From: Sphagnum compactum
Lineage: Eukaryota
Length of the DNA stretch: 64,000 nt
Assembly: GCA_965153455.1 (NCBI GenBank)
Contig: OZ234493.1
Coordinates: 17,970,213 to 18,034,212, forward strand
Direction: 5' to 3'
In this document: piece by piece, positions 26,301-46,400 of the stretch
Layout: each line of letters opens with the position of its first letter
Position numbering within the stretch: the first letter of the stretch is position 1
The notes under the pieces: generated by a model
Database searches by the model: none
The model's input: the letters and a program-made list of their open reading frames with translations, nothing else
Told to the model about the DNA's origin: nothing
Made by a program: the position numbers and the translations under genes

Positions 26301-26470
26301 GGCATTAGCCAAATTGGGAAACACTTGGATAAAGATGGGTTTATTTGTTCTTGGGTCAATAGGACCATCTGGCCACCCTTTAGACCTATGGTCAAAAAGT
26401 CGCAATTTACTTCACCAATCCCTTCCAAAATACACACACTAGAAGTCAGGACGATCTTTCTTACCATTTA
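23400..26470 (-). mobile_element. Fragmented transposon-like ORF upstream of the Ulp1 remnant
   Basis: Several same-strand broken ORFs (23423-23878, 24670-24966, 25455-26300 with a GTAAG donor near 25459). Homologous text is better preserved at 60438-61290. Family not identified. Confidence 0.4.
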
Positions 26471-29059
26471 ATGGGGTCACTCGTGATGAAAATATCTTCA
26501 CTAGAAACTTATTATACAGTTCAGGAATGACCCATTGTTCTATAAATGAGGTAGGTGTTAACTTCACATATTACTTCAACAACCCTTCAAACCCATTTGG
26601 CCTTCCCATCTCCTTATTCATTGTAGCCATATTAGACAAAATTTCCAAAACACAAAATTCTTCCAACTACCATTGGACTTTGTGTTGCTTCCTATGGCAA
26701 CCTAAACCCACCACCATGTTAGAAATAACCATCTCACAACTAATTGTGCCCATAGTTGTGCAAATAAATAAAGAAACCTAATAACATAAACCCTACACAT
26801 TTATTCTCTGCTCATTTGAGGGCTTTAGATTTTTACAAAGCTTCAACCCTTTGCAATGAATTCACAACTCATAGGTTCACAACACCAGATCACTAGTTCG
26901 CAACACCAAAATTATAGTTTGACACCCAAGTCATGATTACATGTTTCTTCCTAAGTGTTGTTACAAAATTAGTTCCCATGTTATAGTTCACCCCATGTTA
27001 CATCGCAAGACTCAAAATAAAAGAATATCTAAATGCAAACACTCAGATGAGGTGATTTTGCTTGCATTTGAATGTGCACATTTGGATTGCTTTATTTTGA
27101 GTGGCACGCTTCACAAATCGTGACCCCGGTTCGCACACGAAGAAAAATTCAAAAAAATTTAAGCACTTATAGCAAAATGGAAAAAAAAAACCTGAAATCG
27201 AAAACCTAATGGTTCCCCTCCATGGAGATAACTAGATTTTCTACCAAATATTTTTGATCTAATTAGACACCAAGCAATAACGCTTTCACAAATGTTACCA
27301 AATACAATATTGGTCAACTTCATAATAATGTATTCACAAACATTTGTGGAAACACACAAACCCTAAACCTTGGTGTAGTTCCATGGTAACCAAAGTTGAA
27401 TGAACTTAACAACAAAACTGAAACTCCTTTGTCAACCTTGTGATTCAAGAGGATGCACAACATCAAGATAAAGAAGTTGTTCCACCATGAAATTCACAGT
27501 GGCAAATTGTACTCAAATAGTTGGAGGATCCAAGGCATTGCAACAACACCAAAAAAGAAAGCACAAGCTAGTGACGTTGAAACACACGAGCAAAGCTATT
27601 ACAAAACGTAAACCTTAATGGGGGAAAAAATGACATCCCATGGCATGTTGTTTGCCTGCATTCCATAAGGATGGGGATGACATCACATGTTACGAAATGA
27701 GCATAACATATTCGTGTTACACAAAGGACGCCATTGGGACCAGGTTTCAGGGAAGGGAAGAACGGCTGAGGACAAAACATGTCAGGCTATACTTTTGTAC
27801 TGGTCGCAATGCAATGGGGCCCAAAATTATGAGTTGTAACTTTCCACTGAACAGCAAATGAGAGTGTCATCCAGATTCTGAAGACTTTTGTAGGGCCCTT
27901 TAAAATTAGCAGCTGAAAAGAAGTTGCCACTTAATTTTGGGAGTCCCATGCCATAGGTGACAAATACTAGTCAATGGGGATCAAGGCCACTTGTCACAAG
28001 TTCAGGAAGACTGGTGGGACGCAACCGAAGAAGAAGAAGAAGAAGAAGTATTAGGGTGGGTTTGGAGAAGGTGGTGGACGATTCAAAGATTTGCGAGGAC
28101 GACGGAGTCTGTGTCGATTTTATAACTATAAGCATTTGTAATCGATCCGAAGGTTTTGTTTGTTGTAGTGATCGGTTGCAGCAAAAATTGCGATTGTTGT
28201 TTCTTTTGCTTCTTCACCTCTGAATCGGTTTGTTCTCCCATATCTACCTTAAATTCCCCTCTGGAAGCTTTCGTCAATCCGTTAGGAACTTGCCAAGAGG
28301 TTCCTCGATTTCGAGAAGAAAGAAGAAGACGGTTGCGTACGGGGGTTGATGGTGCTAAGGATTTGCTGTAGATTGATTTAGTCTTTCGTTGCGAATTGCA
28401 AAAGAAAAAAATCAAATAGGAAGAACGGAGGATCTTGAAGAAAAAGAAAGCAAGGCCCGTAGTGGTTGTGATTGGATTGCTTTTTTGGTTCTGAGGAAGG
28501 AAAGGCAAGCTGGAGGATCTCGTAAGGTACAGAGGAGGTGGTGGTGGAGGATTGGGGAGGTCAAGTGGAGGTGCATTCGATGGAGGAGCGATATCTGCAC
28601 ATAGCCAGGCGGCAGCGCTCGACCCTTCGACCCGTCAGTCTCTAATTTGCAAACAAGGCGAGAACAAACTTCGAGGTACGACTCACAGCAATCTGACTCA
28701 TACTGGTCGCGGTCCTACTCTAGCTATGGAAGGTCATGGCGAGGAGGAGGAGGAGGAGGAGGATCTCAGGGACAGCAGGAAGTAGCTGAATCTGGCATTG
28801 ACTTCTACTGGTTTATTGGCTTCTTCGTGATCGTGGGTACGCCAGATTTTCTTTCCTCTTCAGCTTCTCCCTCTTTGTTTTTGTTTTGGTGCTTCGTTTT
28901 AGGTCAAATATTTAAGGGTTCAAACCAGTGTGGTGAGGGTACCCGGTTTGTAGTGTTAGATTCTGGGGTTCAGGTTCTTGTGCCCTGGACTGGAGGTGGC
29001 ACCCTTTTGTTGGAACTGGCAGAAGAATGGGACCAAGGAACTAGCCTTTTTACAAGATC
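25251..29059 (+). repeat. Segmental duplication, copy 1 (direct repeat of 60238-64000)
   Basis: Colinear match from GTGACATGGCA.AAA.TG.TACACATGAAAATAAATGG to TTTTTACAAGATC, with reciprocal indels (about 26460-26630 only here; about 61155-61260 only in copy 2). Confidence 0.95.
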
Positions 29060-32000
29060 TGGAACTGAGAACGAAACCACTGTTGAATACATGTTCAGGT
29101 TGTTTAGGTGGGCAAGTTGATTCTTTTTTGAAAAAGTTGGCAAGTAGGCTGAACTTTATAATGAAGTATTAATTTTCATGTAGTTGTTGAACTCTGTACC
29201 TCTACAGACCCCTTTTTTAATTTGTTGTAAAACTTATAAAATCTGGCATTCAGGAGTGTGTAGTATGTGCATGGAACCAGGCCTAGAGGTTCTTGAATTT
29301 GTAAAAAAATGTGCCAGAACCAGGACCATGGGCTTGAGAAATTGAAAGAACTAGATTCAAACCCACACCCAGAGAAACGGGGACCAGAGGTTCTCTTTAA
29401 AAGGAAGAACCGCACAATGCTGGTTCAAACCTGTTCGTGGATTGTTTTTGCTTGTTAGCTGAAATTTGTACTTCAAAGAATGGGAAAGAAAATTTCCACA
29501 CCTTTCACACAGAATCATCATCCATTTCAGTCCTGTTGTTATATCATTGTTGTTCTTTCAGCTGCTTGTAGATCTCCATTTTAATGGATGAATTTGCACC
29601 CACTGTGCGTCCCCAGTGTCGCTATGGATGCTTATCAGCCTGTATGGATCCCAAGTCTTGGAGATGGGATTATTTTATTCCCGGGTCCTGAAGGCTAGTC
29701 CTTTGTTGGTGAAGGAGATCAAGGTTGGTGAGCATTTGCTAATTGCTTATGAATCCAATGCACATGTGCCATGTTTGCGTCCGTTTTGTGCTCAGAGTTG
29801 TGGTTTGGAAATGATTCAATTGCTGGGGGTTCATAATGTTGGACCATTGTGCTGAGTATGATCATCAGTATGGTGCTTTTTTGTGTGTGAGGGTTCAGGT
29901 TCAGAATCTTGGAGGGCCTGGTCCATTTGCAATTTCATTTGCAAAGCATCCAGGTTATGGTCATCCATTCATTTCAGATGAAAAATTTAATGTGACAGTC
30001 AATCCACAGTTCCACCAGGCATGTATCTCTCTGCCCTAGTTTATGTTTGGATTTTGTGTTGGACTCTCCTGCTTTCTTATATAATGGTGGGCAATTGAAA
30101 TCACTTTGCATCCATCTGATTTTAAGCAGAATCTGATGTGGTAGTTCTTTTTAATTATCTGCAGTGATATGGATTCTGGCTGAACAAAGGCTCATCTTTT
30201 ACTCTCATATACAATGTGAAAGACTCTCAAGAAGATAGCCTGGTGCTGGCAATTGTCAGAGGTGAAAAGGCTGTTATCTTCTTTGAGTTTGTTTGAAGGC
30301 AGAGCATTCAGTCATGGTACCCATGCACAGTGCTGGTTGATAGTCAAATTGTAGATGCAGCTGCGGAGAACTCCAATGACAAGGTATATCTCCTGTGAAA
30401 AATTCATGTCATCTATTATTGACAAATGAATGCCATTTGGTTTACTGTTGCAGGTGAAGATAGCTATCAGGAATGGACAAAGTATCCAAATAATGCTCAA
30501 TTAGTATCAGCATGGAAACGGATTTATGGCAAGACATTCATTCAGGAAGTCTCTAGAGCACATGGGATGAAGTTGCATATGTTTGTTCAGCTAATTGCCA
30601 ATCTTTGTATGACCGATTGGAGCTCAGGTTTGGTGGGTTGGGAGTCTTTCATCAAACTTCTGTGCTTACATGCCTATTCTCTCTATGCAACATGCAGGAA
30701 GAGGTTCATTAAATTTTACAGTGACAGAATTTGATGACTACTATGTTGCTTTTGGGAACTTGAATGCTCATGAAATGAAGGTGGGCGGTTCAACTGCCTA
30801 TTCATTTCGTATACAAGTTTACATGAGTGTGAACAAGTCTACATGAGACTTAACTCATGTGATCTGCTTTGCAACATTGCATACAAGTCTCGATTGAGAT
30901 GCTGGTTGACAGAGGAGAGGCATACCTGCTGGCTGGGGTATTTTTCAGAACAAGAGAAACCCAGATCTGTACTTAGCTCATCAATATTGTGGTTATTTTT
31001 GTGCCAATTTCCTTCTGCTTGAAGATGCATTGCATGATTTATTTTGTTCAAGATGCGGAATTTAAATGTTCACCGGTGAATGGGAACGTTTGCTGGGTGC
31101 CTCTGTCATTGTCCAAATCCAAGTGGGTGCTAATATCTGCGCCTGACAAGAAGCAGGTATTTGAACCCTGAGTACATATCTGAGTTTTTAATGAACAAAT
31201 ATAATGTTTCGACCAGAATAACGAGTCTGTCTTGCAGTTGTTTGAAGTTTTCCTTATTGGGTGGTCTGTCCAATCATTGATTTCTGCATAACAGGATGTA
31301 AAGCTGTATTTATGAGTAAGGGCATTCTTATTCTGGTAACCTATATCTGTGAATTTTTTATATGCTGTGACCAGCCTGCCACTACTAAAGCCTTGGAGTT
31401 GGGGTCATCTGCAGGAATGGACTATCTGTATTTTGTGTTGATTCACACTGTTGTGGTTGTGCATACAGCATGTTGTTGATGTTTGGAAGGTGAAAGTCTC
31501 ATATATACCTTACTGGATTACCTACTTCATATTGTGGAGTACGTTGTTTTTCCCATCCTGGACCTGAGGGAAATGCTATGGTTTGCACTACTCAGTTTTT
31601 GTTGATTCAAGTTCTTCTATGATATTTTGATGACAATCCTGAAATTTCCCCATTGGAGACGTTTGAAGCAAGTAATTTGATTTCAACTGGGTTGAGGTTG
31701 CAGGTGTAATAGGCTTGGACTATTAGGTATGGTGCTACATAAACAAGGCAGGCAAGTTTCCACAAGTCAACAAGAGGTGGTTCCTCTCACCTCTGTAGAA
31801 CGAAATGAAAGCCTTGAAAATTTGGCAAGAGAGAGCCAGTCTGCTGACTTTTCACCAGCTTTAGGATCTGAAAACTTTCAAGGGGGACATGGAGAGCAAT
31901 CTTTGGAGCAGCTGTGCACTGTGTGCTTGGATGCACCTAAGGACAGTTTCTTTGATCCTTGTGGCCATCGCTGCACATGTTACTCCTGTGGCATGAGGTA

Positions 32001-32332
32001 CCTACCCATCATCCAATGGCAACAAATGATTCCTTTTGCAGATGTTCTAGTTGTTTGCTGGTGGGGTTTTAAGCAGCTAGGACATGGGTAGGTGTCCAGC
32101 TGCAATTGCCCATGGCTCAGCAGTGCATGTTGTGTACTGGATCAGAAATAATCTGGACCACTGCTGTAGCACAAGGACAGTTTTGTTTCTCTATAAGTTT
32201 TCTGTTTTGGAGCTTGTGGGCTGACCATGAAACCATAATCGCTTGAATTGCAGGATACAAAATGGAGACATTGCAAGATGTCCCATTTGCCAGGAAAATG
32301 TGCTTGCTGTCCGTAGGATTTATGACTCATAA
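28580..32332 (+). pseudogene. APD-like (Aberrant Pollen Development family) membrane C3HC4 RING E3 ubiquitin ligase, disabled
   Basis: Exons 28580-28836, 29617-29723, 29899-30018, 30165-30261, 30454-30528, 30698-30780, about 31052-31156, 31469-31538, 31704-31997 and 32254-32332. Motifs LYGSQVLEMG, WLNKGS, DDYYVAFGNLN, VSYIPYWITY and RING CTVCLDAPKDSFFDPCGHRCTCYSC..CPIC. Lesions: frame break after ATG 28580, in-frame TGA at 30165, missing start of exon 7, 1-nt frameshift near 31716. Confidence 0.88.
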
Positions 32333-33947
32333 ACCCTTAGAAGCAACAATCTGGCTCTGGAGCAATCTTCCTTGCTTAAGTTTTGTGACTGTAAAGCATC
32401 TGAACGAGAAAATTGCTGAGTTGGTCACTAAGGCATGCTTTTTTTCTGTTCTGTGAGTGACGATAAGCAAACCATGGTCATCTTGTGAACTGGACAATGA
32501 AAAGGTGTGTCATTGCAGTGTAGATATTATCAATTTCTCCTAGCTCATCTAATTATCCTGAAGCATTTTGCAGTGAATGCTATGATGAAAAACAATGTTA
32601 GACACTGGTAAATGCAACTATGTCTAAAGATTGTTGCAACAACTTTTAAATCTGTACAACTTCAGGTTTTGCCACCCTAGATAGACAGACTTTTTGTGTA
32701 ATCTGTGTCCTATTGTGAATCTGAACTTGTGTACTTGGGATTCACCATTTGTGACTTTGATCTGCAATTTTTATGATTGAGGTTTAGAGTTCCAAGGGGC
32801 ATCAAGAGGAAATATCAACTCTGCAGAAATTGAAACATGTTAGAACATGTGGACATTAAGTTCAATGCTGTTTTGGAGGGTACGTTATAACGGGATGAGC
32901 TTTCTTAAAACGCAACACGTCATATAACAGTATGGTGGGCATGTCATTTCATTTTACAAAATGGTCGCCCCTGATTTTTTAATTTTGGATGTGCTTTACA
33001 TTGGCAACACCCACGGAGCAGGGGCATAACTGAAATAAGTACACCACCTCAGGAGGGTCCTTATTTCAGTAATGACCCATTCCTTGGGTGTTAACCCTAC
33101 ACATGAAGTACGAGCAGAAAATTTCTAATGTATCTGGAGGACACATTATCTTGCAGAATTTCTCATTGGGAAGTGGGTATTTCAAATTTTTTCCCCTTCA
33201 TCGCTGGTGGGTATCCTGCCATATGTGCTGAGTAACAAGGGTGTTGCCCAATGTAAAGCACATTCAAAATTAAAAAAACAGGGGCGACCATTTTGTAAAA
33301 TGAAATGACATGCCCACCATACTGTTATATGACAAGTGTTCCGTTTTAAGAAATGCTCATCCCGTTATAATGTACCCTCCAAAACAGCATTGAACTTAAT
33401 GTCCACATGTTCTAACATGTTTCAATTTCCGCACAGAGTTGATATTTCGTCTTGATGCCCCTTGGAACTCTAAACCTCAATCATAAAAATTGCAGATCAC
33501 AACTCAGCAATTTTCTGGTTCAGATGCTTTACAGTCACAAAACTTAAGCAGTTTTCAAGGAAGATTGCTCCAGAGCCATATTTTGCTTCTAAGGGTTTAT
33601 GAGTCATAAATCCTACGGACAGCAAGCACATTTTCCTGGCAAATGGGACATCTTGCAATGTCTCCATTTTGTATCCTGCAATTCAAGCGATTATGGTTTC
33701 ATGGTCAGCCCGCAGGCTCCGAACAGAAAACTTATAGAGAAACAAAACTGTCCTTGTGCTACAGCAGCGGTCCAGATTATTTCTGATCACAGTACACAAC
33801 ATGCACTGCTGAGCCATGGGCAATTGCAGCTGGACACCTACCCATGTCCTAGCTGCTTAAAACCCCACCAGCAAACAACTAGAACATCTGCAAAAGGAAT
33901 CATTTGTTGCCATTGGATGATGGGTAGGTACCTCATGCCACAGGAGT
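31982..33947. repeat. Inverted repeat A: RING-gene 3' end (31982-33012) mirrored at 33239-33947
   Basis: Reverse-complement match read directly; the ORF track also shows the same peptide MSHKSYGQQAHF.. on - at 32330 and on + at 33599. About 32425-32757 is absent from the right arm. Confidence 0.97.
33018..33240 (+). repeat. Spacer element E, copy 1 (~220 bp, begins with a 58-bp palindrome at 33021-33078)
   Basis: Direct-orientation homolog of 37096-37319; forms the loop of inverted repeat A. Confidence 0.95.
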
Positions 33948-34931
33948 TGAAAGATCAACTCCTTTTCGCTTGAGGCCATATGAATTTCCCATATTTCGCA
34001 CCACTGAAATTCCTATTGCTCACTGCTCTCATAAATATTTTTCTGTTGACCTTTTGATCTCATAAAACCTGCTACAAATCCTTTGCCATCTTGAGGATGG
34101 AATATGCAATGTCATTTTGAGACTTGTCAAACACGCTTTACTTTTTCCCTCTGGCCTCCTCCATTATTATCATCATGACTTTTGTTCACATCCACACACC
34201 CACCTCTCTTTTACCAAAAAACTATAGCCAAAAGAAAACTAAGTCAAAAAAATTTTAAATGCTAAAATTAGATGCTTTTTGAGATTCTCAATAGCCAAAA
34301 TTCCACCAAATTCAAAGAAAAATCGTCAGATTTCCATACATGGTTTTCAAGTAGGTAGCCAAAAAAAGAGAAAGATGTTTAAAATTTTCTAATGCCATAT
34401 TTAGCTCATAGCCAAATCTGACTAAATCTTCCTACCGATGATAGCCACTTGGGCTATATCTCAAAACTGACCCAAAAAATATGATCCACACGTTTCCTGC
34501 TGTTTGCTGATTTCACCCAGTGCATTATTGAAACGTTCTGCCAGAGCTCATGTTGCAGGCAATGCATGATGAATTGGGCCTTGGGCGAACCGGCCAGGGT
34601 GAATTGACCCCCACATTGAGATCACCGTAAAAAAAAACCCCCAAAACCCATTCAAACGGCCATATTAGGCCCCAAAAATTATAGATTTGGACTTTGGGAC
34701 CCCGATTTAATCTAGGGAAATGATATTTTTAAATATTTAGAATATTTATGATCAATTTAAATGGGCTTTGTGGGGTCAAGCTGCCTTGGTCAGTTGAACC
34801 TGGCCTATATTAGAACCACCCTGAAAATCCAAAAGTTTTTTGGGGCAGCTTCAAAACATTATAGATACATGCAGCGTCCTTAGACAAAATCAGGGTCTCT
34901 GAATCTACAACCCGAAACCCTAAACCCAAGA

Positions 34932-35883
34932 GGCCTCACTCAAGAAGGTGAGTGTACCAGTGTAGGTGCTGGTTCGCCCTGGCCAGTGGCTATGATTGGA
35001 GGAGCCTGGGGGGAGAAGGAAAAATTACATGGACGGTCATAGCAAATAAATCCGGAGTGAAAAAACAAAAGAAATTCTGTACAGAGCAGTGATTTTTTTG
35101 GGTGAATTTTCGCAATGTGGCTACAAAATGTTTTTGAAGAAATTGGGAAAATTCGTTTCAACAGTGTGAATTCGAGAAAAAATGCTCAAAAAATGGAAAA
35201 AATGGACAAAGTTTACAAACTGCAAAATTGAGAGAAAAAGAAAAAGAAAACACTGGTACAGAGGTATATATGTATGCACTCTAAATAAAGTAAAGAAAAA
35301 CATGTTGTGAAACTAAGGGTGACTTTAGACGAGGGTCCAAGGTCCAGGGACCGATGAATTCAAGCAATCTTATTGGTCCCAAGGCCTTTAGATGAGGGTC
35401 CAAGACCAAAAAGTGGCAAATTGAGGCTAATATGGCACCTGTTTTGGAGGGAAAATCAATTGGTTCAGACCAAAAGACAGTGCTAAAAGGAGAGCTCCTG
35501 ATTTGGAGAAAGCAAGAATCAGGCTACACTCCAACTCAAGGATTCAATTTGCTTCACATGAGTCCAAATGGGTTCCTAGGAAATTGGACCTAAAGTGGGC
35601 CTAATGGTGTTTTACTGCAAGACCCTTTTCACTCCCTATGTGGAGAACCACAATCAGCACGATTGACATCCGGTGCAAAGTGCACACATGTTGGATCCCA
35701 GATGTGAGGCATTAGCCTAGTGAAAGCCAGTAACTTTTTGCTCCATTTTGGTTTTCTGACTTGCTTTGTGTTATGGTGCCCACAACCAAGTCTGTTGTTT
35801 GTGAATGAATTGGGGAAACCTGTAATTAATGGCCAGGCTGAACCTGCACCTCCATTAATACACTCACCTTCTTGAATGAGGGC
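34932..35883. mobile_element. Non-autonomous TIR element (about 50-bp terminal inverted repeats); mirror copy at 38605-39210
   Basis: GGCCTCACTCAAGAAGGTGAGTGTA.. at 34932 and ..TACACTCACCTTCTTGAATGAGGGC ending at 35883. No clear TSD. Confidence 0.55.
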
Positions 35884-36302
35884 TTTCGCTGATAATAACC
35901 CCAAGACGCATCAAAGAAATGTTAAATTTGAACTCAAAGACCTTGATTTAGTCTAAGGCCTGCTTTACACTCCAAGTCAGGCCTGAAAAAACTTGGGGCC
36001 AAGTTTGAGCATTTTGGAATTTTTTGTCTGGCCCCAAGATACTAATAAATGCTACAACATTGGTCATAAGGGTTGCAAATTGGCTTCTCAAATTTGATGG
36101 TATCCTTTTCTTCAGTCTTGGGGCCAATACCATAAAGTTCAGCATTTATTAGTAACTTGGGGCAGATTGAAAAGATTTTTTCTATTTCAGCCTTGACTCC
36201 TAGTGTAATTTAGCCCTTGGGTCTGATTTCCAGTTTTCACCAATAGGAATGCGTGATTTGGGTTGAACATCGGCCTCCACTCCTAGTCTACAGTGGGCCT
36301 AA

Positions 36303-36621
36303 GAGCAGCTCCACAGGTGCTGGTATACGGCCCTGGCCAGTAAATTTTTGCTCAGCACAATGGCTTTGGCCTGGACATTTTCCCTGCTAATACCAAGGCA
36401 GGCAAAAGGCTCAGCAAAGGACAATACCTGCTGTTGATTGTTGGATACACACTTAGACGGGTGGTTGGTCCAAGTGGGTTGCTAGTAGCTATTATTGGTT
36501 ACCGATCATTTCCGGTGTCAGTTTTAGTGTGGGTTTGGGGAAAAAAAAAAAAAAACTAAGCCTGGTTTTGGGAAATATTGTGTTCTATTGCCATATACTC
36601 AGAGCACCTGTGGAGCTGCTC
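36303..36621. mobile_element. Tourist-like (PIF/Harbinger) MITE
   Basis: Perfect 19-bp TIR GAGCAGCTCCACAGGTGCT / AGCACCTGTGGAGCTGCTC flanked by TAA on both sides (36300-36302, 36622-36624). Confidence 0.85.
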
Positions 36622-37095
36622 TAAAAGATGATTTTAGCTCCAACAAAAGGTGTTTTTGAATGTCAAGTGATTACACTAGATTTTTGATTGAATTCATTGG
36701 TCTAATGAATGGGGAGTAATGAACTGCACCCTCATTTTGTAATAATTAAAAACAAACACAAAGTGTTTTCGTAACTTAATACCAATATAGATGCTGGTTT
36801 GGCCAAGGCATAAATATACCAGGTACATATACTATGCTTGGTCCCATGGCCTTGCGATGAGTGGCCACAGCATGGGAGGGTGTGCCCTGTGAATAGTGAA
36901 ACAGGGGGTGTTCCACTACCCTCTTTTCCTGACTTTAGGAATAACTTTAATATCACAAGTTAGAGTGGGTGGTGCCATCCAAGTCAGGCATTCTCCCTGA
37001 AATAGGCCGGCCCTGGCTTTGGCCTGTGTGTGTTCTTTGGTGTAAGACCTTGCTCTGAGGGCGTTCTGATGTACAGCACTGGCAGAACATTAGTT

Positions 37096-37319
37096 GCAGG
37101 GGCATAACTGAAATAAGTACACCACCTCAGGAGGGTCCTTATTTCAGTAATGACCCGTTTATTGGGTGTTCACCCTACACATGAAGTACGAGCAGAAAAT
37201 TTCTAGTGTATCTGGAGGACACATTATTTGGCAGAATTCTCATTGGCAAGTGTGCATTTCAGTTTTTTTCCCCAGTCATAGCTGGTGGGTATGCTGCCAT
37301 ATGTGCTGAGTATCATAGG
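37096..37319 (+). repeat. Spacer element E, copy 2 (58-bp palindrome at 37099-37156)
   Basis: Same sequence and orientation as 33018-33240; forms the loop of inverted repeat B. Confidence 0.95.
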
Positions 37320-37853
37320 AAAAGAAATGAAAACTAATTTTCTGCCAGTGCTGTACATCAGAACGCCCTCAGAGCAAGGTCTTACCCCAAAGAACACACA
37401 GTGGCCAAAGCCAGGGCAGGCCTATTTCAGGGAGAATACCTCACTTGGATGGCATTACCCCACTCTAACTTGTGATATTAAAGTTATTCCTAAAGTCAGG
37501 AAAATATGGTACTGGAACACCCCCCCCTGTTTCACTATTCACAGGGGCACACTCTCCCATGCTGTGGCCACTCATCGCAAGGCCATGGGACCAAGCATAG
37601 TATCTGTACCTGTTATAATTATGCCTTGGCCAAACCAGCATCTATATTGGTACTAAGTTACAAAAACACTTTGTGTTTGTTTTTAATTATTACAAAATGT
37701 GGATGCAGTTCATTACTCCCCATTCATTAGACCAATGAAATTCATTATTTTTGAACTGGTCTGAATTTACTTAAACGAATGAATTCATTGAAAATCTAGT
37801 GAATTCACTTGACATTAAAAGGCACCTTTTGTGGTAGGTAAAATCATCTTTTA

Positions 37854-38180
37854 GAGCAGCTGCACAGGTGCTCTGAGTATATGGCAATGGAACACAATAT
37901 TTCCCAAAACCAGGATTAGTTTTTTTTTTCCTTTTCTTTTTCTCAACCGCACACTAAAACTGACACTCGAAATGATCGGTAACCAATAATAGCTACTAGC
38001 AACCCACTTGGACCAGCACCTCTCCAAGAGTCTCTCCAACAAAAATCAACAGCGGGTATTGTCCTTTGCTGAGCCTTTTGCCTGCCTTGGTATTATCGGG
38101 GAAAATGTCCAGGCCAAAGCCATTGTGCTGAGCAAAATTTACTGTCCATGGCCATACACCCAGCACCTGTGGAGCTGCTC
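37854..38180. mobile_element. Tourist-like MITE, mirror copy within inverted repeat B
   Basis: Same TIR with one mismatch, TTA flanks at 37851-37853 and 38181-38183; flanking context mirrors 36303-36621. Confidence 0.85.
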
Positions 38181-40489
38181 TTAGGCCCACTTTACACTAA
38201 AAGTGGAGGCCAATGTTCAACTCAAATCACACATTCCTATCGGTGCAAAAGTTGAAATCAGCCTGGAAGGCTAAATTACACTAGCAGTCAAGGCTGAAAT
38301 AGAAAACATCTTTTCAATCCGCCCCAAGTTATTGATAAATGCTGAACTTTATGGCCTTGTATTGGCCCCAAGGCTGAAGAAAAGGATACCATCGAATTTG
38401 GGAAGCCAATTTGCAACCCTTGTGGCCCATGTTGTAGCGTTTATTAGTAACTTGGGGCCAGACAAAAAGTCCAAAATGCTCAAACTTGGCCCCAAGTTTT
38501 TTCAGCCCTGACTCCGAGTGTAAAGCAGGCCTTAGACTACATCAAGGTCTCGGAGTTCAAATTTAACATTTCTTTGATGCGTCTTGGAGTTATTATCAGA
38601 GAAAGGCCTCATTCAAGAAGGTGAGTATATTAATGTAGGTGCACATGTCTGAACCAATTGATTTCCCCTCCAAAACAGGTCCCATATTAGCCTCAATTTG
38701 CCACTTTTTGGTCTTGGACCCTCCTCTAAAGGCCTTGGAACCAATTTAAAGCTTTTGACCAATAAGATTGCTTGAATTCATTGGTCCCTGGACCTCGGAC
38801 CCTCGTCTAAAGTCGCCCTTAGTTTCACAACATGTTTTTTCATAATTTATTCAGAGTGCACACATATATACCTCTGTACCACTGTTTTCTTTTTCTTTTT
38901 CTTTTTTTCTCAATTTTGTAGTTTGTAAACTTTGTCCATTTTTTCCATTTTTTGAGAATTTTTTTCTTGAATTCACACTATTGAAACGAATTTTCCCAAT
39001 TTCTTCAAAAACATTTTGTAGCCACAGTGCGAAAATTCACCAAGAAAAATCACTGCTCTGTACAGAATTTCTTTTGTTTTTCCACTCCGGATTTATTTGC
39101 TATGACCGTCCATGTAATTTTTCCTTCTCCCCCCAGGCTCCTCCAATCATAGCCACTGGCCAGGGTGAACCAGCACCTACACTAGTACACTCACCTTCTT
39201 GAGTGAGGCCCCTTGGGTTTAGGGTTTAGGTGTAGGATTTCAGGTTGTAGATTCAGAGACCCTGATTTTGTCTAAGGACGCTACATGTATCTATAATGTT
39301 TTGAAGCTGCCCCCGAAAACTTTGGGATTTTCACAAAATGGTTCTAATATAGGCCAGGTTCACCTGACCAAGGCAAATTGACCCCCTAAAGCCCATTTAA
39401 ATTGCTCATAAATATTCTAAATATTTATAAATATCATTTCCCTAACCTAAATCGGGGTCGGAAGGTCCAAATCTATAATTTTTGGGGCCTAATATGGCCA
39501 TTTGAATGGGTGTTGGGGGCTTTTGCGGTGATCCCAATGTGGGGGTCAATTCACCCTGGCCGGTTCGCCCAAGGCCCAATTAATCATGCACTGCCTGCAA
39601 CATGAGCTCTGGGAGAACGTTTCAATAATGCACTGGGTGAAATCAGCAAACAGCAGGAAACGCGTGGATCAATAAATTTTTGGGTCAGATTTGAGAAATA
39701 GCCCAAGTGGCTATCATCGGTAAGAAGATTTAGTCAGATTTGGCTATGAGCTAAATATGGCATTAGAAAATTTTAAACATCTTTCTCTTTTTTTGGCTAC
39801 CTACTTGAAAACCATGTATGGAAATCTGACGATTTTTCTTTGAATGTGGTGGAATTTTGGCTATTGAGATTCTCAAAACGCATCTAATTTTAGCATTTAA
39901 AATTTTTTTGACTTAGTTTTTTCTTGGCTATAGTTTTTTTGTAAAAGAGAGGTCAGTGTGTGGATGTGAACAAAAGTCATGATGATAATAACGGAGGAGG
40001 CCAGAGGGCAAAAGTAAAGCGTATTTCACAAGTCTCAAGGTGACATTGCATATTCCATCCTCAATTATGAGTAGAAAATAGAGACATGTGTTCCAGAAAA
40101 GAAAGTAATGAATTGTTCAATGGCCAAGAAATCGGTAAAGCGCGTATGCTACAGTCTGAAGAGTCGCGGCAAAACCCTTCTAGAAGTTTCTGGGGGCGGA
40201 GGACGTGAAGAAGAAGAAGCATTTATGAGAAAAGTCGAGAAAGGAGTAAGAGAAGAGAGTGGGAATTCCAGGGAGATCGTGAAGAGCAAAGGGGTTGATG
40301 TTTTTTTGGGGAGAGCTAGTGGAAAGATCAGCTTAGTCTGCGGGAATCTGTGATGTGAGGGACACCCATCATACCCTCTGTATGCTATTGGGATGGCAAA
40401 GGATTTGTAGCACGTTTTATGAGACCAAAAGGTCAAGAGAAAAATATTTCTGAGAGGAGTGAGCAATAGGAATTTCAGTGGTGCGAAAT

Positions 40490-43400
40490 ATGGGAAATTC
40501 ATATGGCCTCAAGCGAAAAGGAGTTGATCTTTCACAAGGGCGACCAAAAAGAAAGAGAGATGCTGTGCTGAACACTGCTGTGATCGAGACACCGTTGGTC
40601 CCAGCTGAAAATGCTCCTTCAAGCTCTGGATGGCACAGCAATGTGGTGCTTCTTGATCTTATCCTGAGCTTTCTTTCCACAGTTTTTTCTTGGGCTTTCC
40701 CTAGTTACATGTTGAAGTTTGATTTTTCTTTACTTTTTCTATTTTGTTTGGGTGTTGACAATTTTCTTCACCCTTACAACCATGATAGCTTATTGTCCTC
40801 ACAAAGCATCAGGAGAAGGAGGTCTAGTTCAGATTTGAACTCCCCACCAGCGGCTTCACAACCATACCCTTTAGCCACTAGGGTACATGAATGTCCTCAA
40901 TCATTTACAAGCTTCCTTGTCATACATTTTCAGTTTGCCTACTTTCCAGTTTGTTTGTCTAGATAAAAAGAATAGGAAATGAAGTCATCATTATAGCCTC
41001 TTACATTAGGCTGGCAACTCAGTTGCTATATAACAAGTAGAATTGGTGAAAGGGAAATTTGTCAATTGGCATTGACTAAGAATACATTGAACTTGTAAGG
41101 ATTGGAGCTTTCATTATAGATTATGAGTTAAGTTCAATGTGTAGTCTTAATCCACCAACCTAAAGCAAATTATTAAAATGCTCTTGGACATTCTTATTGG
41201 GTTTGTGTCTCATTTCCTTAGGAGTTGGAGGCCTTAGTGGCGCAAATGTTGGGGAAAATGTCATGAAATACAAACAAACCAAACTAGATGGTTGAGTCAA
41301 TCGACCCAAACTTGAAAGAATCCAATTCTTAGCATTAACCTTTATTGATTGGCATACATTCCTCTTACAATGTAACAATATTTACTCATTGAACTATGTT
41401 TTGAAACTTTGAGGTCTTTGACACTTGTGAATGATCTTCATTTGTTAGTCATGCAAGATAGATTTGGTATTCTCCCATTCATCTATTATTGTCTTCTTGT
41501 TAAACTTGATCTTTTCAATTACTTATTGCCTTTATCTAACCACTATAATTTGTATATTGCATTTTTTTAATTTAATGTATAGTCAAATAATTTTCAAGAG
41601 ATGTTTGAAGAATTGTGTTGACTCTTTTTCATTTGTTTTGCAGAAATATTTAGTGTATGATTTAAATCCCACTTGCAATTCCAACAATCCAAACTTGACC
41701 ATCGTTTTTTTCCATGGGATTGCTTTTGGCACAAATGATGAATGGAAGGAAACATGGACAACATGCCCCACCAACAATAGAGAAGAGTGCATATGTTGGC
41801 CAGAAAAGTGGCTACCCGAAGATTTGAACAACAATGTTCGAATTTTATCATTGTCCTATGATTCTAACATTGTGGCAAGTGTTCACACTGATGTGACTGA
41901 AATTGGCAAAAACCTCATTCAAAGTTTGGTTACAAATTCAAGGTGTGACAATCTCTTCTCTTTATGGACACATTAATTACTTTTCCTTGTGTACATTAAA
42001 GATAATTGTGTAGAGCTTTAGAATTTTTTAAATCTTTTGCACAAGTTAATTGTTCAAGCGTGCTAATATTGTGATACACACCAATAAGTTTCCATTTATT
42101 TGAAGTGATAGATTGAGGTAAAAAAACATAAAATGGGGCTTAAATGCAAATGTTCTTGTTTGTGGATAATAGCAAAATCTATGTTCGTATTATAAGTTCA
42201 TGGTACAACTAGTTTGGTTTTGATGGCAATTTTTAATTCGCGTTTTTTGAAGGTTTATCCTTGGTACTGCAATTGAATTGAATTATATTATATTAATACA
42301 TGTGTCGAAAATTTGCATCCATTTCATTGTAAAAAAATTATTTCAAGAAAAGGGCATATCTTTTTCTCTTTTTTTTATTAAATTTCAACGGTATTTTCAA
42401 GGTAACACATCGAAGATGAGTTGTACATTAATAGAATAATGTAAACACCTAAATACTTGTACATAATAATTGTTTTACCAAAACATGGTTGTCACATTTT
42501 TTAGGTAGATTGATGGAGTCAATAAATGATAAATGATAGATGACAAGCAAATCAATTATGAACTTATGGCCTAGGTCATGTGTGAATTAGAAAATTGCCC
42601 CAAGTATAATAAGATAAATTTGTACATGCTAATATAATGTTGATAATGGAATTCTGGTGCATTGTTGAATATTTTGTAGTTATCAATCCCTGTGGGATGG
42701 ACCGGTGGCATTAGTTGCTTACAGCTTTGGAGGTCTTGTACTCAAAAGCTTGGTGGTTGAAGCTCACAAACATGTAAATCAAAGGCCAAGAAATGATTTG
42801 GATGATGAAATACAGAAATGTTGTAATACATTTTTGAATAATGTTAAAGGTGTAATATTTTATGGTGTACCACATGCTGGTGGTACCCAGTATTTATCAA
42901 ATTATTTCACTTGGCAACATCAACAAATCAACACATTGAGCAAGCATGCAACCCAATCTGGTTTTTAAAAAAAATTAGAATCTTTCAACCCACAAATGGA
43001 ACACCTTTCAACGGATTTTAAAAATGCCGTTCATGAAGACCTCAACATTTATGCATTTGGCGAAGGATTGCCACTCGATGAAAATTGGGTAAGATTTTCA
43101 TTTCACCACATCGAAAATTATCCAACTAGGTTCATTGGTTGAACATTTTTGTATTGTCAAAACTTGTGTGAAATCATGTACTCAATACTTTTAAATATAT
43201 TAATGGGGTGAATGGGTCATCTGTTTTATGAACTTTGTTTCATGAATTACTATTGTTGGAAAGGAAATTTGATTGATTTCAAATAGGAGAAAATTTCTTT
43301 TAAATTTTCCTTTTGTCAAATTAATTCCATATAAATATTTGGGAGGAAAATCATAACATCATTAAAAAATGTAAGATTAATGAAATTAAAAACAAATAAC

Positions 43401-46400
43401 TTTGTGATGTATTTGTATAATTTGTTTCCCAAGGGTGGAGGAAATTACTTTAACACCAAATATTTCATTCTTATTCAAACATCAATAGTTATTAAGCCAG
43501 AGTTTCCACCGCCATTTGAAATTAGTTTGTTACTTATAAATTCAAGCACAAGTGAACAAAAAAATCAATGGGCTCCATTAATTTAATCTTTTGCACATGC
43601 AGGGAATTTTAGTGCCATTTGCCTCAGCTATTCAGTTGTCAAACAACAACCATTACAAAATTGAGGATGCTAATCACTTGACAATTTGCAAGCCACCAAA
43701 CAAAGATCATCCAAGTTATTATTTATTGTTAAAATGTTTGAGAATATGTATGGAGGTAAAAACATCAAATCTAAATCTTTTGATTTCATATATGTTCATG
43801 TAATTTGATACACATTAGGTCATAGCACTCTTGATGTGTATTGCATATGCAATGTCATATATATTGGTTATCAAATAAAAAAGATAACATATAAATGACC
43901 TATATTTTGTGAATTTTGACAGAAAAATATATTGTTTCCACCTTTGCCATGTCATGAAGTGGCGTTGATTGACAAAACAAAAGACATAAACATCTTGTTA
44001 CAAAAGGAATCTATTGTTGGTTTGGTTGGAATGGGTGGGATTGGGAAAACCACTTTGTGCAAAAAATTCTATCATTTGTTCCACGACCAATATGACAAAT
44101 CTAGTTTTTTGGAGGATGTGAAATCAAAGGACAATTTCAATGATGTCATAAAACAACTCCTACATGATTTGTGTGGCAAAAGGTTATGCAAGGATGAAAA
44201 TGTGAATCAAAAAGACCTTGACCAAATTAGGCAATGTATGATATCAAAGAAAGTGTTGGTGGTGGTGGATAATGTTGGTAAGGAGGAGAACCTTACATCT
44301 TTGCCAATTTTCATTGATAAGGCTGCAAAGAATCCAACTTCTAAAAGCAGAGTACTTGTGAATTGTCGAAATTGGCAAAGTTTGGAATCTCATGTAAGCG
44401 AGGATGGAAAAGTGATCATGAAACCTTTGGAGAAAAAGCAAGCAAGGGAACTATTTATGTTCCATGCGTTGGGTAATGGAAATCATGTTCTAACAGAAGA
44501 TTTCAACAATATATGTATGAAGATTATAAAAGCTTGTGGGGGGCTCCCTTTAAGTCTTAAAGTATTGGGTTCTTTTTTGTGCAATACTAAAGAATTAGAA
44601 ATGTGGCGAGGTGCATTGAATAAATTGAAAAGTGGGCAAAGTCTCACTGGGGGCAATGATAATGAAAAGCTTTGGAGTGTATTAAGGATTTCTTATGACC
44701 ATTTGGATAAGCAACTTCAAGACATGTTTTTGGATATTGCTTGTTTTTTCAGTGGTTTGAAAATAAGTACAATTTGTCGAGCTTGGAGTGGAGATTATTT
44801 ACACCCAAAATTTGAATTACAAAATTTACAACATAGATCTTTAATCCAACGGGCAAAAGGTAGAATCTTGTACATACATGAGCAATTACAAGACATGGGT
44901 CAAAATATTGCAATGGAACTTCCAATGATGAATCGTTTTATATGGAAATCAAATAAGCCAAATTTATTTTTACAAAAGGATGAGGTTGTCACCATATTAT
45001 TTCAATCCTATAATTTTATTTTGATTTCCCATGAATTTTTTTTAGGTCCAAAATCAAATGTTTTACCTTTCAATCTTGATTTTATAAATACACGTTTTTT
45101 AAAAAACACATTGGCATTAGGATGAAATGTTTTTCTATATTGATAATCCTTTTGTTTTCATTTCATGTGATAGGTGGTGGAAAATCTAGAAGGCATTTCA
45201 TTGAAAAAATGTGTCAATTTGCCTACATTGTCCCAAATTGGCTCAAAGGGATTTCAGAACCTTAGGTTGGTTGACCTAACAGAAGCCTCACCGACTATTG
45301 TGAAAATTTTCATCCAAGGGCGAAATTTGAATAATGTTAAGTGGTTGTGCATCAAAAAATGCATGATTCGAAGGTTACCAAACAATTTGTTTTATTGTAT
45401 ACAATTAAAAGTACTTGATTTGACACAATGCGTAAGTTTGGAAAAAATACCTCCATCTATTGGCCGATTGAACGCACTACAAGAACTTGACTTGAAGGGG
45501 TGTTCGAGGTTGGAAGAACTACCTTCATCTATTGGCCAATTGAATGCACTCCAAAAGTTTGATTTATCAGGGTGTTCCAAGTTGAAAGAACTACCTTTAT
45601 CTATTGGCCAATTGAATTCACTCCAAAAGTTTGATTTATCAGGGTGTTTCAACTTGAAAGAACTACCTTCATCTATTGGTCAATTGAATGCACTCCAAAA
45701 GTTTTATTTATCAAAATGTTCCAAGTTGGAAGAACTACCTTCATCTATTGGCCAATTGAATGCACTCCAAAAGTTTGATTTATCAGGGTGTTCCAAGTTG
45801 AAAGAACTACCTTTATCTATTGGCCAATTGAATTCACTCCAAAAGTTTCATTTATCAGGGTGTTCCAAGTTGAAAGAACTACCTTTATCTATTGGCCAAT
45901 TGAATTCACTCCAAAAGTTTGATTTATCAGGGTGTTCCAAGTTGAAAGAACTACCTTTATCTATTGGCCAATTGAATTCACTCCAAAAGTTTGATTTATC
46001 AGGGTGTTTCAACTTGAAAGAACTACCTTCATCTATTGGTCAATTGAATGCACTCCAAAAGTTTTATTTATCAGAATGTTCCAAGTTGGAAGAACTACCT
46101 TCATCTATTGGCCAATTGAATGCACTCCAAGTGCTTGATTTGAATGAATGTTTCAACTTGAAAGAACTACCTTCTTCTATTGGGCAATTGAATGCATTCC
46201 AAGGGCTTGATTTATCACAGTGTTCCAAGTTGAAGGAACTACCTTCGTCTATTGGCCAATTCAGTGCACTCCAAGAGCTTAGTTTATCAGGGTGTTCCAA
46301 CTTGAAAGAACTACCTTCATCTATTGGCCAATTGAATGCACTCCAATACCTTATTTTATCAAGGTGTTCCAATTTAAAAGAACTACCTTCATCTATTGGC

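What the first reader, a model, noticed from the sequence alone, without database searches (positions are those of the whole stretch)
31982..40534. Two back-to-back long inverted repeats centred on the same ~220-bp spacer (A-E-rcA|rcB-E-B)
Seen: A (RING-gene 3' end, 31982-33012) is followed by E (33018-33240), rc(A) (33239-33947), rc(B) (33948-37095), E again in the same orientation (37096-37319) and B (37332-40534, NLR upstream region and first codons). Two unrelated palindromes share one loop sequence, and both strand switches occur within a few bases of E's two borders. Inference: the ancestral order was A-E-B. The 3.86-kb insert equals a B|A fusion (a circle-type or tandem-deletion junction) placed in inverted orientation between two direct copies of E. 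Homologous recombination between direct repeats cannot invert a segment, and ODIRA-type triplication would also invert E. This points to a process that brings E's two ends together (alternative-transposition-like or cruciform-driven template switching) and mirrors both flanks. If E does this elsewhere, it is a palindrome-generating element that turns neighbouring genes into hairpin loci.
Basis: partly seen in the sequence, partly recalled or inferred. Interest (0 to 1): 0.85.

Follow-up and report, generated by a model that had tools for sequence, protein, structure and literature searches.

The report
Inversion scar between two NLR-cluster repeats
The twin palindromes that share one 223-base spacer are real, but they look like the ordinary scar of one inversion plus a deletion between two neighbouring copies of a repeated RING-gene/immune-receptor unit, not the work of a special palindrome-making element.

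Summary
The layout A-E-rcA|rcB-E-B is in the sequence at the stated coordinates. A metagenome scan gave 24 pattern hits, 6 of them true relatives, and all 6 carry A-prox, E and B-prox as one seamless stretch.

E is not an element. It has no terminal repeats and no target duplication. It has no borders in the relatives, no third copy in the window and no excess read depth. Its "borders" are two breakpoints.

Junctions E1|rcA and rcB|E2 are the two reciprocal joints of one inversion. They have 0-2 bases of microhomology, and 5 and 12 ancestral bases are lost.

The inner copies are not fresh duplicates. B, rcB and locus L024 are equidistant at 6.2-6.3%, and E1/E2 differ by 7.2%. A/rcA differ by only 1.7%. 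So two paralogous units were involved, not a local 4.4-kb duplication.

Best reading (0.68): breakage and end-joining inverted the segment between E|B of one unit and A|E of the next, and about 30 kb was deleted. One breakpoint lies in a strong 88-nt DNA hairpin, which may be a fragile site.

No independent read was seen to bridge the new junctions. Interest is low to moderate.

The parts
31696..32332 (+). 3' part of the RING-finger gene. It holds the exon with the C3HC4 motif (open frame from 31696, splice near 32040), an intron, and the last exon with CPIC at 32279 and the stop at 32330-32332.
   Evidence: zf-C3HC4_3, E 3.2e-9
31982..33012 (+). A: the outer copy, continuous with the RING gene. 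It keeps a 334-bp stretch (32424-32757) that the inner copy lost.
   Evidence: the 334 bp are present in L006 and L009
33006..33093 (.). H: an 88-nt imperfect DNA palindrome (hairpin) spanning the A|E border. Breakpoint p1 (33012-33017) lies in the base of its left arm.
   Evidence: dG -25.4 kcal/mol, z -6.4, 0 of 200 shuffles as good; one of 6 such sites in 64 kb; weak mir-8536-like hit on both strands, 30 bits against a cut-off of 100; 37 pairs, 0 compensatory
33018..33240 (+). E1: the 223-bp spacer copy that belongs with A (unit 0)
33239..33947 (-). rcA: the inner inverted copy of A (unit 1). It differs from A at 12 of 695 aligned sites and lacks 334 bp.
33947..33948 (.). J3: blunt fusion of RING-exon position 31982 to NLR codon 15 (position 40534). 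Read on the minus strand it gives a 19-codon out-of-frame ORF.
33948..37095 (-). rcB: the inner inverted copy of the NLR upstream region plus 15 codons (unit 0). It keeps 371 bp (35471-35841) lost from B and lacks 327 bp just upstream of the ATG.
37096..37319 (+). E2: the spacer copy that belongs with B (unit 1). It starts inside the left arm of H, so its hairpin is truncated.
37320..37331 (+). 12 ancestral bases between E and B. They are present in all 6 relatives and absent from both new junctions.
37332..40534 (+). B: the outer copy, continuous with the NLR gene (ATG at 40490)
40490..50156 (+). NLR gene. It has N-terminal exons with a weak esterase-like match, NB-ARC at 43920-45125, and a very long array of 72-bp (24-aa) LRR units at 45434-50156.
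   Evidence: DUF676, E 0.032, below cut-off
25251..29059 (+). Start of the roughly 35-kb repeat unit. It is repeated at 60238-64000 with 86-92% identity.

Best explanation
The locus is the scar of a conservative inversion between two neighbouring, paralogous copies of a tandemly repeated unit (...NLR - X - RING - A - E - B - NLR...).

One double-strand break fell between E and B in unit 0. The other fell between A and E in unit 1, about 240 bp away in unit coordinates. The segment between the breaks was rejoined in reverse by end joining. This made the two reciprocal junctions E1|rcA and rcB|E2.

A deletion of roughly 30 kb inside the inverted segment removed NLR-0 and most of RING-1 and made the blunt junction rcA|rcB. 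It happened either in the same event or later.

The breakpoints lay in two direct repeats at slightly offset positions. The direct repeats therefore became two back-to-back palindromes, and the 223 bp between the offsets stayed direct on both sides. E is that offset and nothing more.

Shown: the layout, the ancestral order, the reciprocity of the junctions, the lack of microhomology, the small losses at the joints, and the paralogous (not recent) origin of rcB and of one E copy.

Inferred: the breakage-and-joining mechanism, the size of the deletion, and the adjacency of the two units.

Speculative (about 0.25): the 88-nt hairpin H at breakpoint p1 acted as a fragile site.

Consequence: one NLR and one RING copy were lost. 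What remains is a 0.7-1.0-kb inverted repeat of the RING 3' end and a 3.2-kb inverted repeat of the NLR upstream region. Both could form hairpin RNA if transcribed. This was not tested.
For: 1. Ancestral state. Of 24 loci hit by the hairpin pattern, 6 are true relatives at 89-94% identity. All 6 show A-prox, the bases ACGGAG or a one-base variant, E, a 12-base stretch (one locus differs by one base) and B-prox as one collinear stretch.

2. Reciprocity. rcA ends and E2 begins at the same ancestral point, with 5 bases lost. E1 ends and rcB begins at the same ancestral point, with 12 bases lost. One two-break inversion predicts exactly this.

3. Junction type. Microhomology is 2 nt at E1|rcA, 0 nt at rcB|E2 and 0-1 nt at rcA|rcB.

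4. Two different units were involved. B, rcB and L024 are equidistant over 2761 sites (6.30, 6.27 and 6.16%), and the sites shared by each pair number 82, 83 and 86. E1/E2 differ by 7.2%, no less than E1 differs from L024 (6.7%) or L009 (7.2%).

5. The three large indels are deletions in one copy each, because the relatives hold the longer state.

6. E is not repeated beyond its unit. In the raw reads of X22 the summed depth is 12.1 in the E1 bin and 6.8 in the E2 bin. It is 5.8-16.5 in the RING/A bins and 33-190 in most B/NLR bins.

7. Sequence specific to the inner copies exists in an independent run. X6 contigs match 35927-36100 and 37127-37323 with 0 differences.
Against: 1. If the breaks fell at random in two 35-kb units, an offset of 240 bp or less has a chance of about 1.4%. 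Either a fragile site or pairing of the units helped, or this is a selected coincidence.

2. A/rcA differ at only 12 of 695 sites, and the first 61 nt of E are identical. The rest of E differs at 16 of 161 sites and B at 174 of 2761 (Fisher p 1.8e-6 and 1.3e-8). So the two units must already have shared a near-identical RING-A side, or the A arms were homogenised later while the B arms were not. Support for the first option is only indirect: exact-match RING/A contigs have about 5-8 times the depth of exact-match B-prox contigs in X1 and X6.

3. None of the 24 contig pieces listed bridges 33240, 33947/8 or 37095/6, and 13,281 pieces were not shown. The new junctions therefore rest on this assembly alone.

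4. No un-inverted two-unit allele of this very locus was seen.
Confidence: 0.68

Rival explanations
1. Replication-based template switching (fold-back priming or MMBIR). A broken or stalled 3' end at the right edge of E folded back onto its own strand at the base of hairpin H and copied A backwards. It then jumped to the NLR start, copied B backwards, and switched again to the left edge of E.
For: Junction E1|rcA has 2 nt of microhomology and a 223-bp spacer, which is typical of fold-back inversions. The papers on fold-back duplications, PMC3907307 and PMC10622511, were seen only in the listing and abstract. rcA is nearly identical to A (1.7%), as a fresh copy would be. Breakpoint p1 lies in a strong hairpin.
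Against: rcB and one E copy are not fresh copies. B, rcB and L024 are equidistant and E1/E2 differ by 7.2%. The second fold-back would have to reuse the same two points within 5 and 12 bases, which a reciprocal inversion gives for free. Two of the three junctions have 0-1 nt of microhomology.
Confidence: 0.12
2. A local 4.4-kb tandem duplication of A-E-B (or re-integration of a circle) was followed by inversion of the piece between the two E copies.
For: It gives the same three junctions. A/rcA are close.
Against: It predicts that A/rcA, E1/E2 and B/rcB are equally old sister pairs. B and rcB share no excess of sites against L024 (82 against 83 and 86). The divergence classes differ sharply. 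Rescuing the idea would need complete later replacement of 3.2 kb of B and most of E by other paralogues.
Confidence: 0.07
3. E is a mobile or otherwise active element whose two ends are cut and mis-joined (alternative transposition, or cruciform cutting at both ends). It would make palindromes wherever it sits.
For: Both strand switches lie at E's edges. A strong hairpin overlaps the left edge.
Against: E has no terminal inverted repeats and no target-site duplication. E has no edges in 6 of 6 relatives and sits at no palindrome centre there. Its read depth is at unit level only. There are only 2 copies in 64 kb. There is no structure at the right edge (z 0.17 and -0.38).
Confidence: 0.03
4. 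Assembly artefact: a chimeric or wrongly oriented join of reads from different units.
For: No independent read or contig was seen to bridge the three new junctions. The cluster is repetitive.
Against: The arms differ by 1.7-6.3% and by three indels of 327-371 bp, so this is not a fold-back read artefact. The junctions are blunt and lie in unique sequence, not inside shared repeats where assemblers switch. The two inversion junctions are reciprocal to within 5 and 12 bases. Sequence specific to the inner copies occurs with 0 differences in another study's run (X6).
Confidence: 0.06

Closest known systems
Cut-and-paste (breakage and non-homologous end-joining) chromosomal inversions, as described for Drosophila inversion breakpoints (passages of PMC7584159 read)
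   Same: There are two breaks and two reciprocal junctions with little or no microhomology. A few bases are lost at each break. One breakpoint is associated with a motif that can form non-B DNA.
   Different: Here both breaks fall in two direct paralogous repeats at nearly homologous positions. The inversion therefore turns the repeats into two palindromes and leaves a direct 223-bp duplicate. A deletion of about 30 kb is also nested inside.
Fold-back inverted duplications with a short spacer (PMC3907307 and PMC10622511, listing and abstracts only)
   Same: Inverted arms lie around a spacer of a few hundred bp. Junction E1|rcA has 2 nt of microhomology.
   Different: Fold-back products are non-reciprocal copies made at the time of the event. 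Here a reciprocal partner junction exists, and most of the 'copy' is an old paralogue.
ODIRA inverted triplication and DUP-TRP/INV-DUP
   Same: An inverted middle segment lies between direct flanking copies.
   Different: There is no triplication. There are no short inverted repeats at the junctions. There is no net copy gain relative to two units.
Reversed-ends or sister-chromatid alternative transposition of Ac/Ds (recalled, not read)
   Same: It makes inversions and inverted duplications whose junctions sit exactly at element ends.
   Different: E has none of the features of a transposon (see the membership test).
Endogenous inverted-repeat silencing loci and proto-miRNA genes made by inverted duplication of target genes. 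Allen et al. 2004 was seen only as a reference-list entry of PMC10575705. PAI1-PAI4 and Mu killer are recalled.
   Same: Long inverted repeats of gene sequence lie downstream of an unrelated, expressed-looking gene. The target family (B/NLR) is multi-copy.
   Different: No RNA or small-RNA evidence was obtained. The repeat covers the promoter plus 15 codons rather than the coding body. The inner promoter copy has lost the 327 bp next to the ATG.

Membership tests
DNA transposon / MITE (needed for alternative transposition) | Terminal inverted repeats at the two ends of E | tested here: not met
   The left and right ends of E show no complementarity. The only inverted repeat is hairpin H inside and across the left edge.
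DNA transposon / MITE (needed for alternative transposition) | Target-site duplication flanking each copy | tested here: not met
   The flanks of E1 and E2 differ from each other and from side to side.
DNA transposon / MITE (needed for alternative transposition) | Discrete borders: related loci with and without the element, or the element in unrelated contexts bounded at the same ends | tested here: not met
   6 of 6 relatives carry E seamlessly inside a longer conserved stretch. The one foreign context (L008/L015) holds a 520-bp block that overruns E on both sides.
DNA transposon / MITE (needed for alternative transposition) | Copy number above that of the flanks | tested here: not met
   The depth of the E bins equals the RING/A baseline in all 4 runs. 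There are 2 copies in the window.
ODIRA / inverted triplication | Three copies of the amplified segment, the middle one inverted | tested here: not met
   A, E and B are each present twice. Relative to two ancestral units nothing is gained.
ODIRA / inverted triplication | Junctions at short interrupted inverted repeats | tested here: not met
   Microhomology is 0-2 nt. The weak 9-10-nt inverted match flanking E is not where the joins lie.
ODIRA / inverted triplication | A replication origin inside the segment | not testable with these tools
   No origin data are available.
Cut-and-paste NHEJ inversion | Two reciprocal junctions that together account for both sides of both breaks | tested here: met
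   rcA/E2 share breakpoint p1 and E1/rcB share breakpoint p2. Only 5 and 12 ancestral bases are missing.
Cut-and-paste NHEJ inversion | No long homology at the junctions | tested here: met
   2 nt and 0 nt.
Cut-and-paste NHEJ inversion | The un-inverted ancestral arrangement is documented | tested here: inconclusive
   The single-unit order A-E-B is seen in 6 of 6 relatives. The un-inverted two-unit allele of this same locus was not seen.
Fold-back inverted duplication | The inverted arm is a fresh copy of the adjacent arm | tested here: inconclusive
   Met for A/rcA (1.7%) but not for B/rcB, which are equidistant with L024.
Hairpin-RNA / inverted-repeat silencing locus | Long inverted repeat homologous to expressed genes | tested here: met
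   The arms are 0.7-1.0 kb (RING 3' end) and 3.2 kb (NLR upstream region plus 15 codons).
Hairpin-RNA / inverted-repeat silencing locus | Transcription across the repeat, and small RNAs from it | not tested
Hydrolase-type NLR of bryophytes (Hyd-NLR; passages of PMC11218826) | N-terminal alpha/beta-hydrolase domain + NB-ARC + LRR | tested here: inconclusive
   NB-ARC (2.3e-29) and LRR are clear. The N-terminal exons give only DUF676 at E 0.032, below the cut-off.

The most novel reading that the evidence does not exclude
The conserved 88-96-nt near-palindrome H in the RING-NLR spacer may be a recurrent breakage and recombination hotspot of this bryophyte-type NLR cluster. It would mark both the end of the tract that is near-identical between the two units (A plus the first 61 nt of E) and one inversion breakpoint. 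The inversion would also have created a read-through hairpin locus whose small RNAs act on the multi-copy NLR upstream family and on the RING paralogues.
Probability: 0.1. Interest if true: 0.55.

Novelty: new member of a known kind. Interest (0 to 1): 0.27.

Why it matters
This case shows how a striking pattern, two unrelated palindromes sharing one loop, falls out of a single ordinary inversion when its two breakpoints lie at slightly offset positions in two direct repeats. No special element is needed. This matters when palindromes in repeat-rich immune-gene clusters are interpreted.

For the locus itself the event removed one NLR and one RING copy. It left long inverted repeats of an NLR promoter region that belongs to a multi-copy family. 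If transcribed, such repeats are the raw material of hairpin-derived small RNAs. That is worth one RNA-seq or small-RNA check but is unproven.

The link between one breakpoint and one of the six strongest DNA hairpins in 64 kb is a small data point for fragile sites driven by secondary structure in plants.

Tried and rejected
- No whole genome is held for the window. A genome-wide census of E, and inspection of the next unit's A-E-B (which lies just beyond the window end), were therefore impossible.
- Three look-ups of earlier findings returned nothing.
- Rfam gave only a weak mir-8536-like hit on both strands at 33005-33093 (30 bits against a cut-off of 100). With 0 compensatory pairs among 37 there is no case for a structured RNA. 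That alignment is biased, because the inner 11-bp stems were the search pattern.
- The exact 36-mer scan of metagenome contigs found nothing. The looser stem pattern found 24 loci, of which 18 share only the pattern and were dropped after BLAST.
- Reads. The joints listed as 'opposite strands' (for example 36208/38263) lie at homologous positions of rcB and B. I read them as reads of other family members that fit one arm on one side and the other arm on the other side, not as real junctions.
- One X16 contig (33166 to 37686, side 24) is too weak to use.
- A 294-nt X16 contig fits 33249-33417 with 125 letters unplaced. It may be an A copy next to something other than E. I could not follow it up.
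- Depth in the contig runs is a sum over paralogues and was used only for comparison within a run.
- I considered recombination between a short inverted repeat flanking E, and inverted pairing of the palindromic hairpins of two units. I rejected both because the predicted junctions would retain the 12 bases, or would invert the right part of E. Neither is seen.
- I considered constraint as the cause of the low A/rcA divergence and rejected it. Among the relatives A-prox is the fastest part, at 7.5-13.5%.
- L008 has no ORF of 120 aa or more in 10.4 kb.

Full report
**Observation**

The described layout is real. The repeat finder and a self-BLAST of the window give these blocks:

| Block | Coordinates | Match | Identity |
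|---|---|---|---|
| A | 31982-33012 | inverted against 33947-33239 | 96.4% and 94.5%, with a 334-bp gap |
| E | 33018-33240 | direct against 37096-37319 | 91.6% |
| rcB | 33948-37095 | inverted against 40534-37332 | four collinear pieces, 89-96.5% |

A 36-nt word of E occurs twice in the window, against 0 expected in 100 shuffles. Nothing else in the 64 kb resembles A, E or B.

Reading the junctions:
- A is followed by 5-6 private bases and then E1.
- E1 runs directly into rcA.
- rcA meets rcB at 33947/33948.
- rcB runs directly into E2.
- E2 is followed by 12 private bases and then B.

**Context**

- A is the 3' end of a RING-finger gene (zf-C3HC4_3, E 3.2e-9). It holds the last 15 nt of the RING exon, an intron, and the last exon with CPIC and a stop at 32330-32332.
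- B is the upstream region and first 15 codons (ATG at 40490) of a gene with NB-ARC (2.3e-29) and a very long LRR array.
- The N-terminal exons of that gene look like an alpha/beta-hydrolase, but only weakly (DUF676, E 0.032).
- Hydrolase-NLRs are described as a bryophyte speciality (passages of PMC11218826). The window is therefore probably from a bryophyte. I did not try to name it.
- The region belongs to a repeat unit of about 35 kb: 25251-29059 recurs at 60238-64000 with 86-92% identity.
- No genome is held for the window.

**What the junctions say by themselves**

The junction E1|rcA joins the right end of E to the inverted end of A. The junction rcB|E2 joins the inverted start of B to the left end of E. 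Read on the other strand, these are A|rcE and rcE|B. Together they are the two reciprocal joints produced when DNA is cut at A|E and at E|B and rejoined the other way round.

Take two direct copies of A-E-B. Put one cut at E|B in the first copy and one at A|E in the second, and invert what lies between. The result is A-E-rcA...rcB-E-B.

E is therefore defined by the offset of the two cuts. The observation that both strand switches lie at E's borders carries no independent information.

**Relatives**

An exact 36-mer of E found nothing in the metagenome contigs. The two 11-nt stems of E's hairpin with a free loop found 24 loci. BLAST against the window shows that 6 of the 24 are true relatives at 89-94% identity: L006, L008, L009, L011, L015 and L024. 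The other 18 share only the pattern.

In all 6 relatives A-prox, E and B-prox form one uninterrupted, collinear sequence.
- L024 runs from A through E and all of B into the NLR.
- L009 runs NLR - X - RING - A - E - B-prox and then meets a DUF604 gene.
- L008 and L015 are paralogues of each other (94% over 4 kb). They hold only a 520-bp block that overruns E on both sides, in otherwise unrelated non-coding DNA.

Conclusions from the relatives:
- The ancestral order A-E-B is confirmed.
- E has no edges outside this window.
- E sits at no palindrome centre in any relative.
- The 5-6 bases before E1 and the 12 bases after E2 are ancestral, being present in 6 of 6 relatives with single-base variants.
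- Those bases are missing from both new junctions, so a few bases were lost at each break.
- Microhomology is 2 nt at E1|rcA, 0 nt at rcB|E2 and 0-1 nt at rcA|rcB.

This is the signature of breakage and end joining. It is not the signature of homologous recombination or of a transposase.

**Is E an element?**

No test supports it.
- It has no terminal inverted repeats and no target-site duplication.
- It has no excess copy number. In the raw reads of X22 the two-strand depth is 12.1 in the E1 bin and 6.8 in the E2 bin. It is 5.8-16.5 across the RING/A bins and 33-190 across most B and NLR bins. The three contig runs show the same ranking.
- B, not E, is the multi-copy part.

**Age of the copies**

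| Pair | Differences | Divergence |
|---|---|---|
| A vs rcA | 12 of 695 | 1.7% |
| E1 vs E2 | 16 of 222 | 7.2% |
| B vs rcB | 176 of 2770 | 6.35% |

- With L024 as a third sequence, B, rcB and L024 are equidistant (6.30, 6.27 and 6.16% over 2761 sites). The sites shared by each pair number 82, 83 and 86. rcB is therefore an old paralogue of B and not a recent copy.
- E1 is no closer to E2 than to L024 (6.7%) or L009 (7.2%).
- A and rcA are much closer to each other than either is to any relative (5.5-10.5%).
- This is not due to constraint. Among the relatives A-prox is the most divergent part, at 7.5-13.5%.
- All 16 E1/E2 substitutions lie beyond position 61 of E, and the first 61 nt are identical. 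At the rate of the rest of E the chance of that is 0.0017. One derived base is shared against all six relatives.
- The low-divergence class (12 of 756) differs from the rest of E (16 of 161, p 1.8e-6) and from B (174 of 2761, p 1.3e-8).

This rules out a simple local 4.4-kb duplication as the source of the inner copy.

The simplest fit has two units of the array taking part. Their RING-A sides, perhaps up to about 60 nt into E, were already nearly identical. Their E-right and B sides were old paralogues.

Indirect support comes from the organism-A runs. Exact-match contigs over RING/A have about 5-8 times the depth of exact-match contigs over B-prox: 133-195 against 29 in X1 and 41-46 against 4.6-6.8 in X6. 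This suggests several near-identical RING-A copies.

The alternative is later homogenisation of the A arms alone. It cannot be excluded, but it would leave unexplained why the longer B arms show none.

**The three large indels**

All three are deletions in one copy, because the relatives hold the longer state.
- rcA lost 334 bp.
- rcB lost the 327 bp lying 99-425 bp upstream of the ATG.
- The outer B lost 371 bp.

**The third junction**

rcA|rcB fuses RING-exon position 31982 to NLR codon 15, and the join is blunt. On the minus strand it reads as the NLR start followed by an out-of-frame stop after 19 codons. In the two-unit history it is a deletion, inside the inverted segment, of everything between the start of NLR-0 and the end of RING-1. 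That is about 30 kb if the units were adjacent.

Whether it arose with the inversion (four breaks, one fragment lost) or later cannot be told.

**A possible role for DNA structure**

The A|E border lies in the base of an 88-nt imperfect palindrome at 33006-33093.
- As single-stranded DNA it folds at -25.4 kcal/mol, z -6.4, and 0 of 200 shuffles fold as well.
- In a scan of 110-nt windows over the 64 kb, only 6 places reach -25 kcal/mol, and this is one of them.
- The palindrome is present in all relatives, but with 0 compensatory changes among 37 pairs. The inner stems were my search pattern, so this says little about an RNA role.
- The right edge of E shows no structure (z 0.17 and -0.38).

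If the two breaks had fallen at random in 35-kb units, an offset of 240 bp or less would have a chance of about 1.4%. In 4.4-kb units the chance would be 10.8%. A fragile hairpin, or two breaks made while the paralogous units were paired, would make the near-homologous positions less surprising.

I rate this at about 0.25. It is a post-hoc association.

**Is it an assembly artefact?**

Probably not.
- The arms differ by substitutions and by three indels of 327-371 bp.
- The junctions are blunt and lie in unique sequence.
- The two inversion junctions are reciprocal.
- Contigs of another study's run (X6) match sequence specific to the inner copies with 0 differences, at 35927-36100 and 37127-37323.

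However, none of the 24 contig pieces listed bridges 33240, 33947/8 or 37095/6, and 13,281 pieces were not shown. Independent confirmation of the three new junctions is therefore lacking.

**Comparison with known processes**

- The structure works like, and fits the tested features of, a cut-and-paste end-joining inversion (models summarised in passages of PMC7584159). The special feature is that both breaks lie in direct paralogous repeats.
- It fails the tests for a transposon, so alternative transposition is out.
- It fails for ODIRA or inverted triplication on copy number and on the absence of short inverted repeats at the junctions.
- It fits fold-back duplication only for the A arm. PMC3907307 and PMC10622511 were seen as listing and abstracts only.
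- ODIRA, DUP-TRP/INV-DUP, Ac/Ds alternative transposition, PAI1-PAI4 and Mu killer are recalled from memory and were not read here.

**Function**

The event cost one NLR and one RING copy. It left two long inverted repeats directly downstream of an intact RING gene.

If transcription reads through, hairpin RNA against the RING 3' end and against the multi-copy NLR upstream family could arise. This is the known route to inverted-repeat silencing loci and young miRNA genes. Allen et al. 2004 was seen only as a reference entry in PMC10575705.

No RNA data were examined. The inner promoter copy has also lost the 327 bp next to its ATG. I regard the locus as most likely an inert scar.

**Verdict**

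The proposed palindrome-generating element is not supported. This is an ordinary, if tidy, rearrangement of an immune-gene cluster. Confidence in the inversion-plus-deletion reading is 0.68, and interest is 0.27.

Noticed in passing
window 45434-50156 (+): The NLR's LRR region is a 4.7-kb tandem array of 72-bp (24-aa) units, about 65 repeats at 73-87% mutual identity in one open exon region. The homologue on L009 has a much shorter array.
   Followed up: partly
window 33906-36943 and 37812-43000: B and the NLR 5' part have 3-19 times the read depth of the RING gene and of E in all four runs. Peaks lie at 35208-35641 and 38246-39113, so part of the 'NLR upstream region' belongs to a high-copy family or holds repeats. 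Many loose ends sit at 35372, 35430, 35917, 35957 and 36208.
   Followed up: partly
window 30000-33000 versus 37710-37892: In the organism-A runs, exact-match contigs over RING/A have about 5-8 times the depth of exact-match contigs over B-prox. This suggests several near-identical RING-A copies in that genome.
   Followed up: no
L008 1944-2466 and L015 2976-3493: A 520-bp block (the last 190 nt of A, E, and the first 92 nt after E) sits in an otherwise unrelated stretch with no ORF of 120 aa or more in 10.4 kb. It may be a displaced fragment of the RING-NLR spacer.
   Followed up: partly
L009 167-895 (+): In this relative the A-E-B-prox stretch is followed by a DUF604 gene (E 6.3e-57) instead of an NLR, as at an edge of the array. 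Its unit (NLR to RING) is also far shorter than the window's 35 kb.
   Followed up: partly
window 8467-8538 (-): A tRNA-Asp (GTC) gene, 58 bits in Rfam.
   Followed up: no
window 20191-21514: A cluster of tandem repeats at 20962-21514 (74-80% identity between copies). 4 of the 6 strongest DNA hairpin sites of the window start between 20191 and 21371.
   Followed up: no
window 5928-6185: A 129-bp tandem duplication, with the two copies 98.4% identical.
   Followed up: no
window 33079-33093: Four substitutions private to E2 cluster within 15 nt, just after the 61-nt identical stretch. This may be a single multi-base event or the edge of a conversion tract.
   Followed up: no
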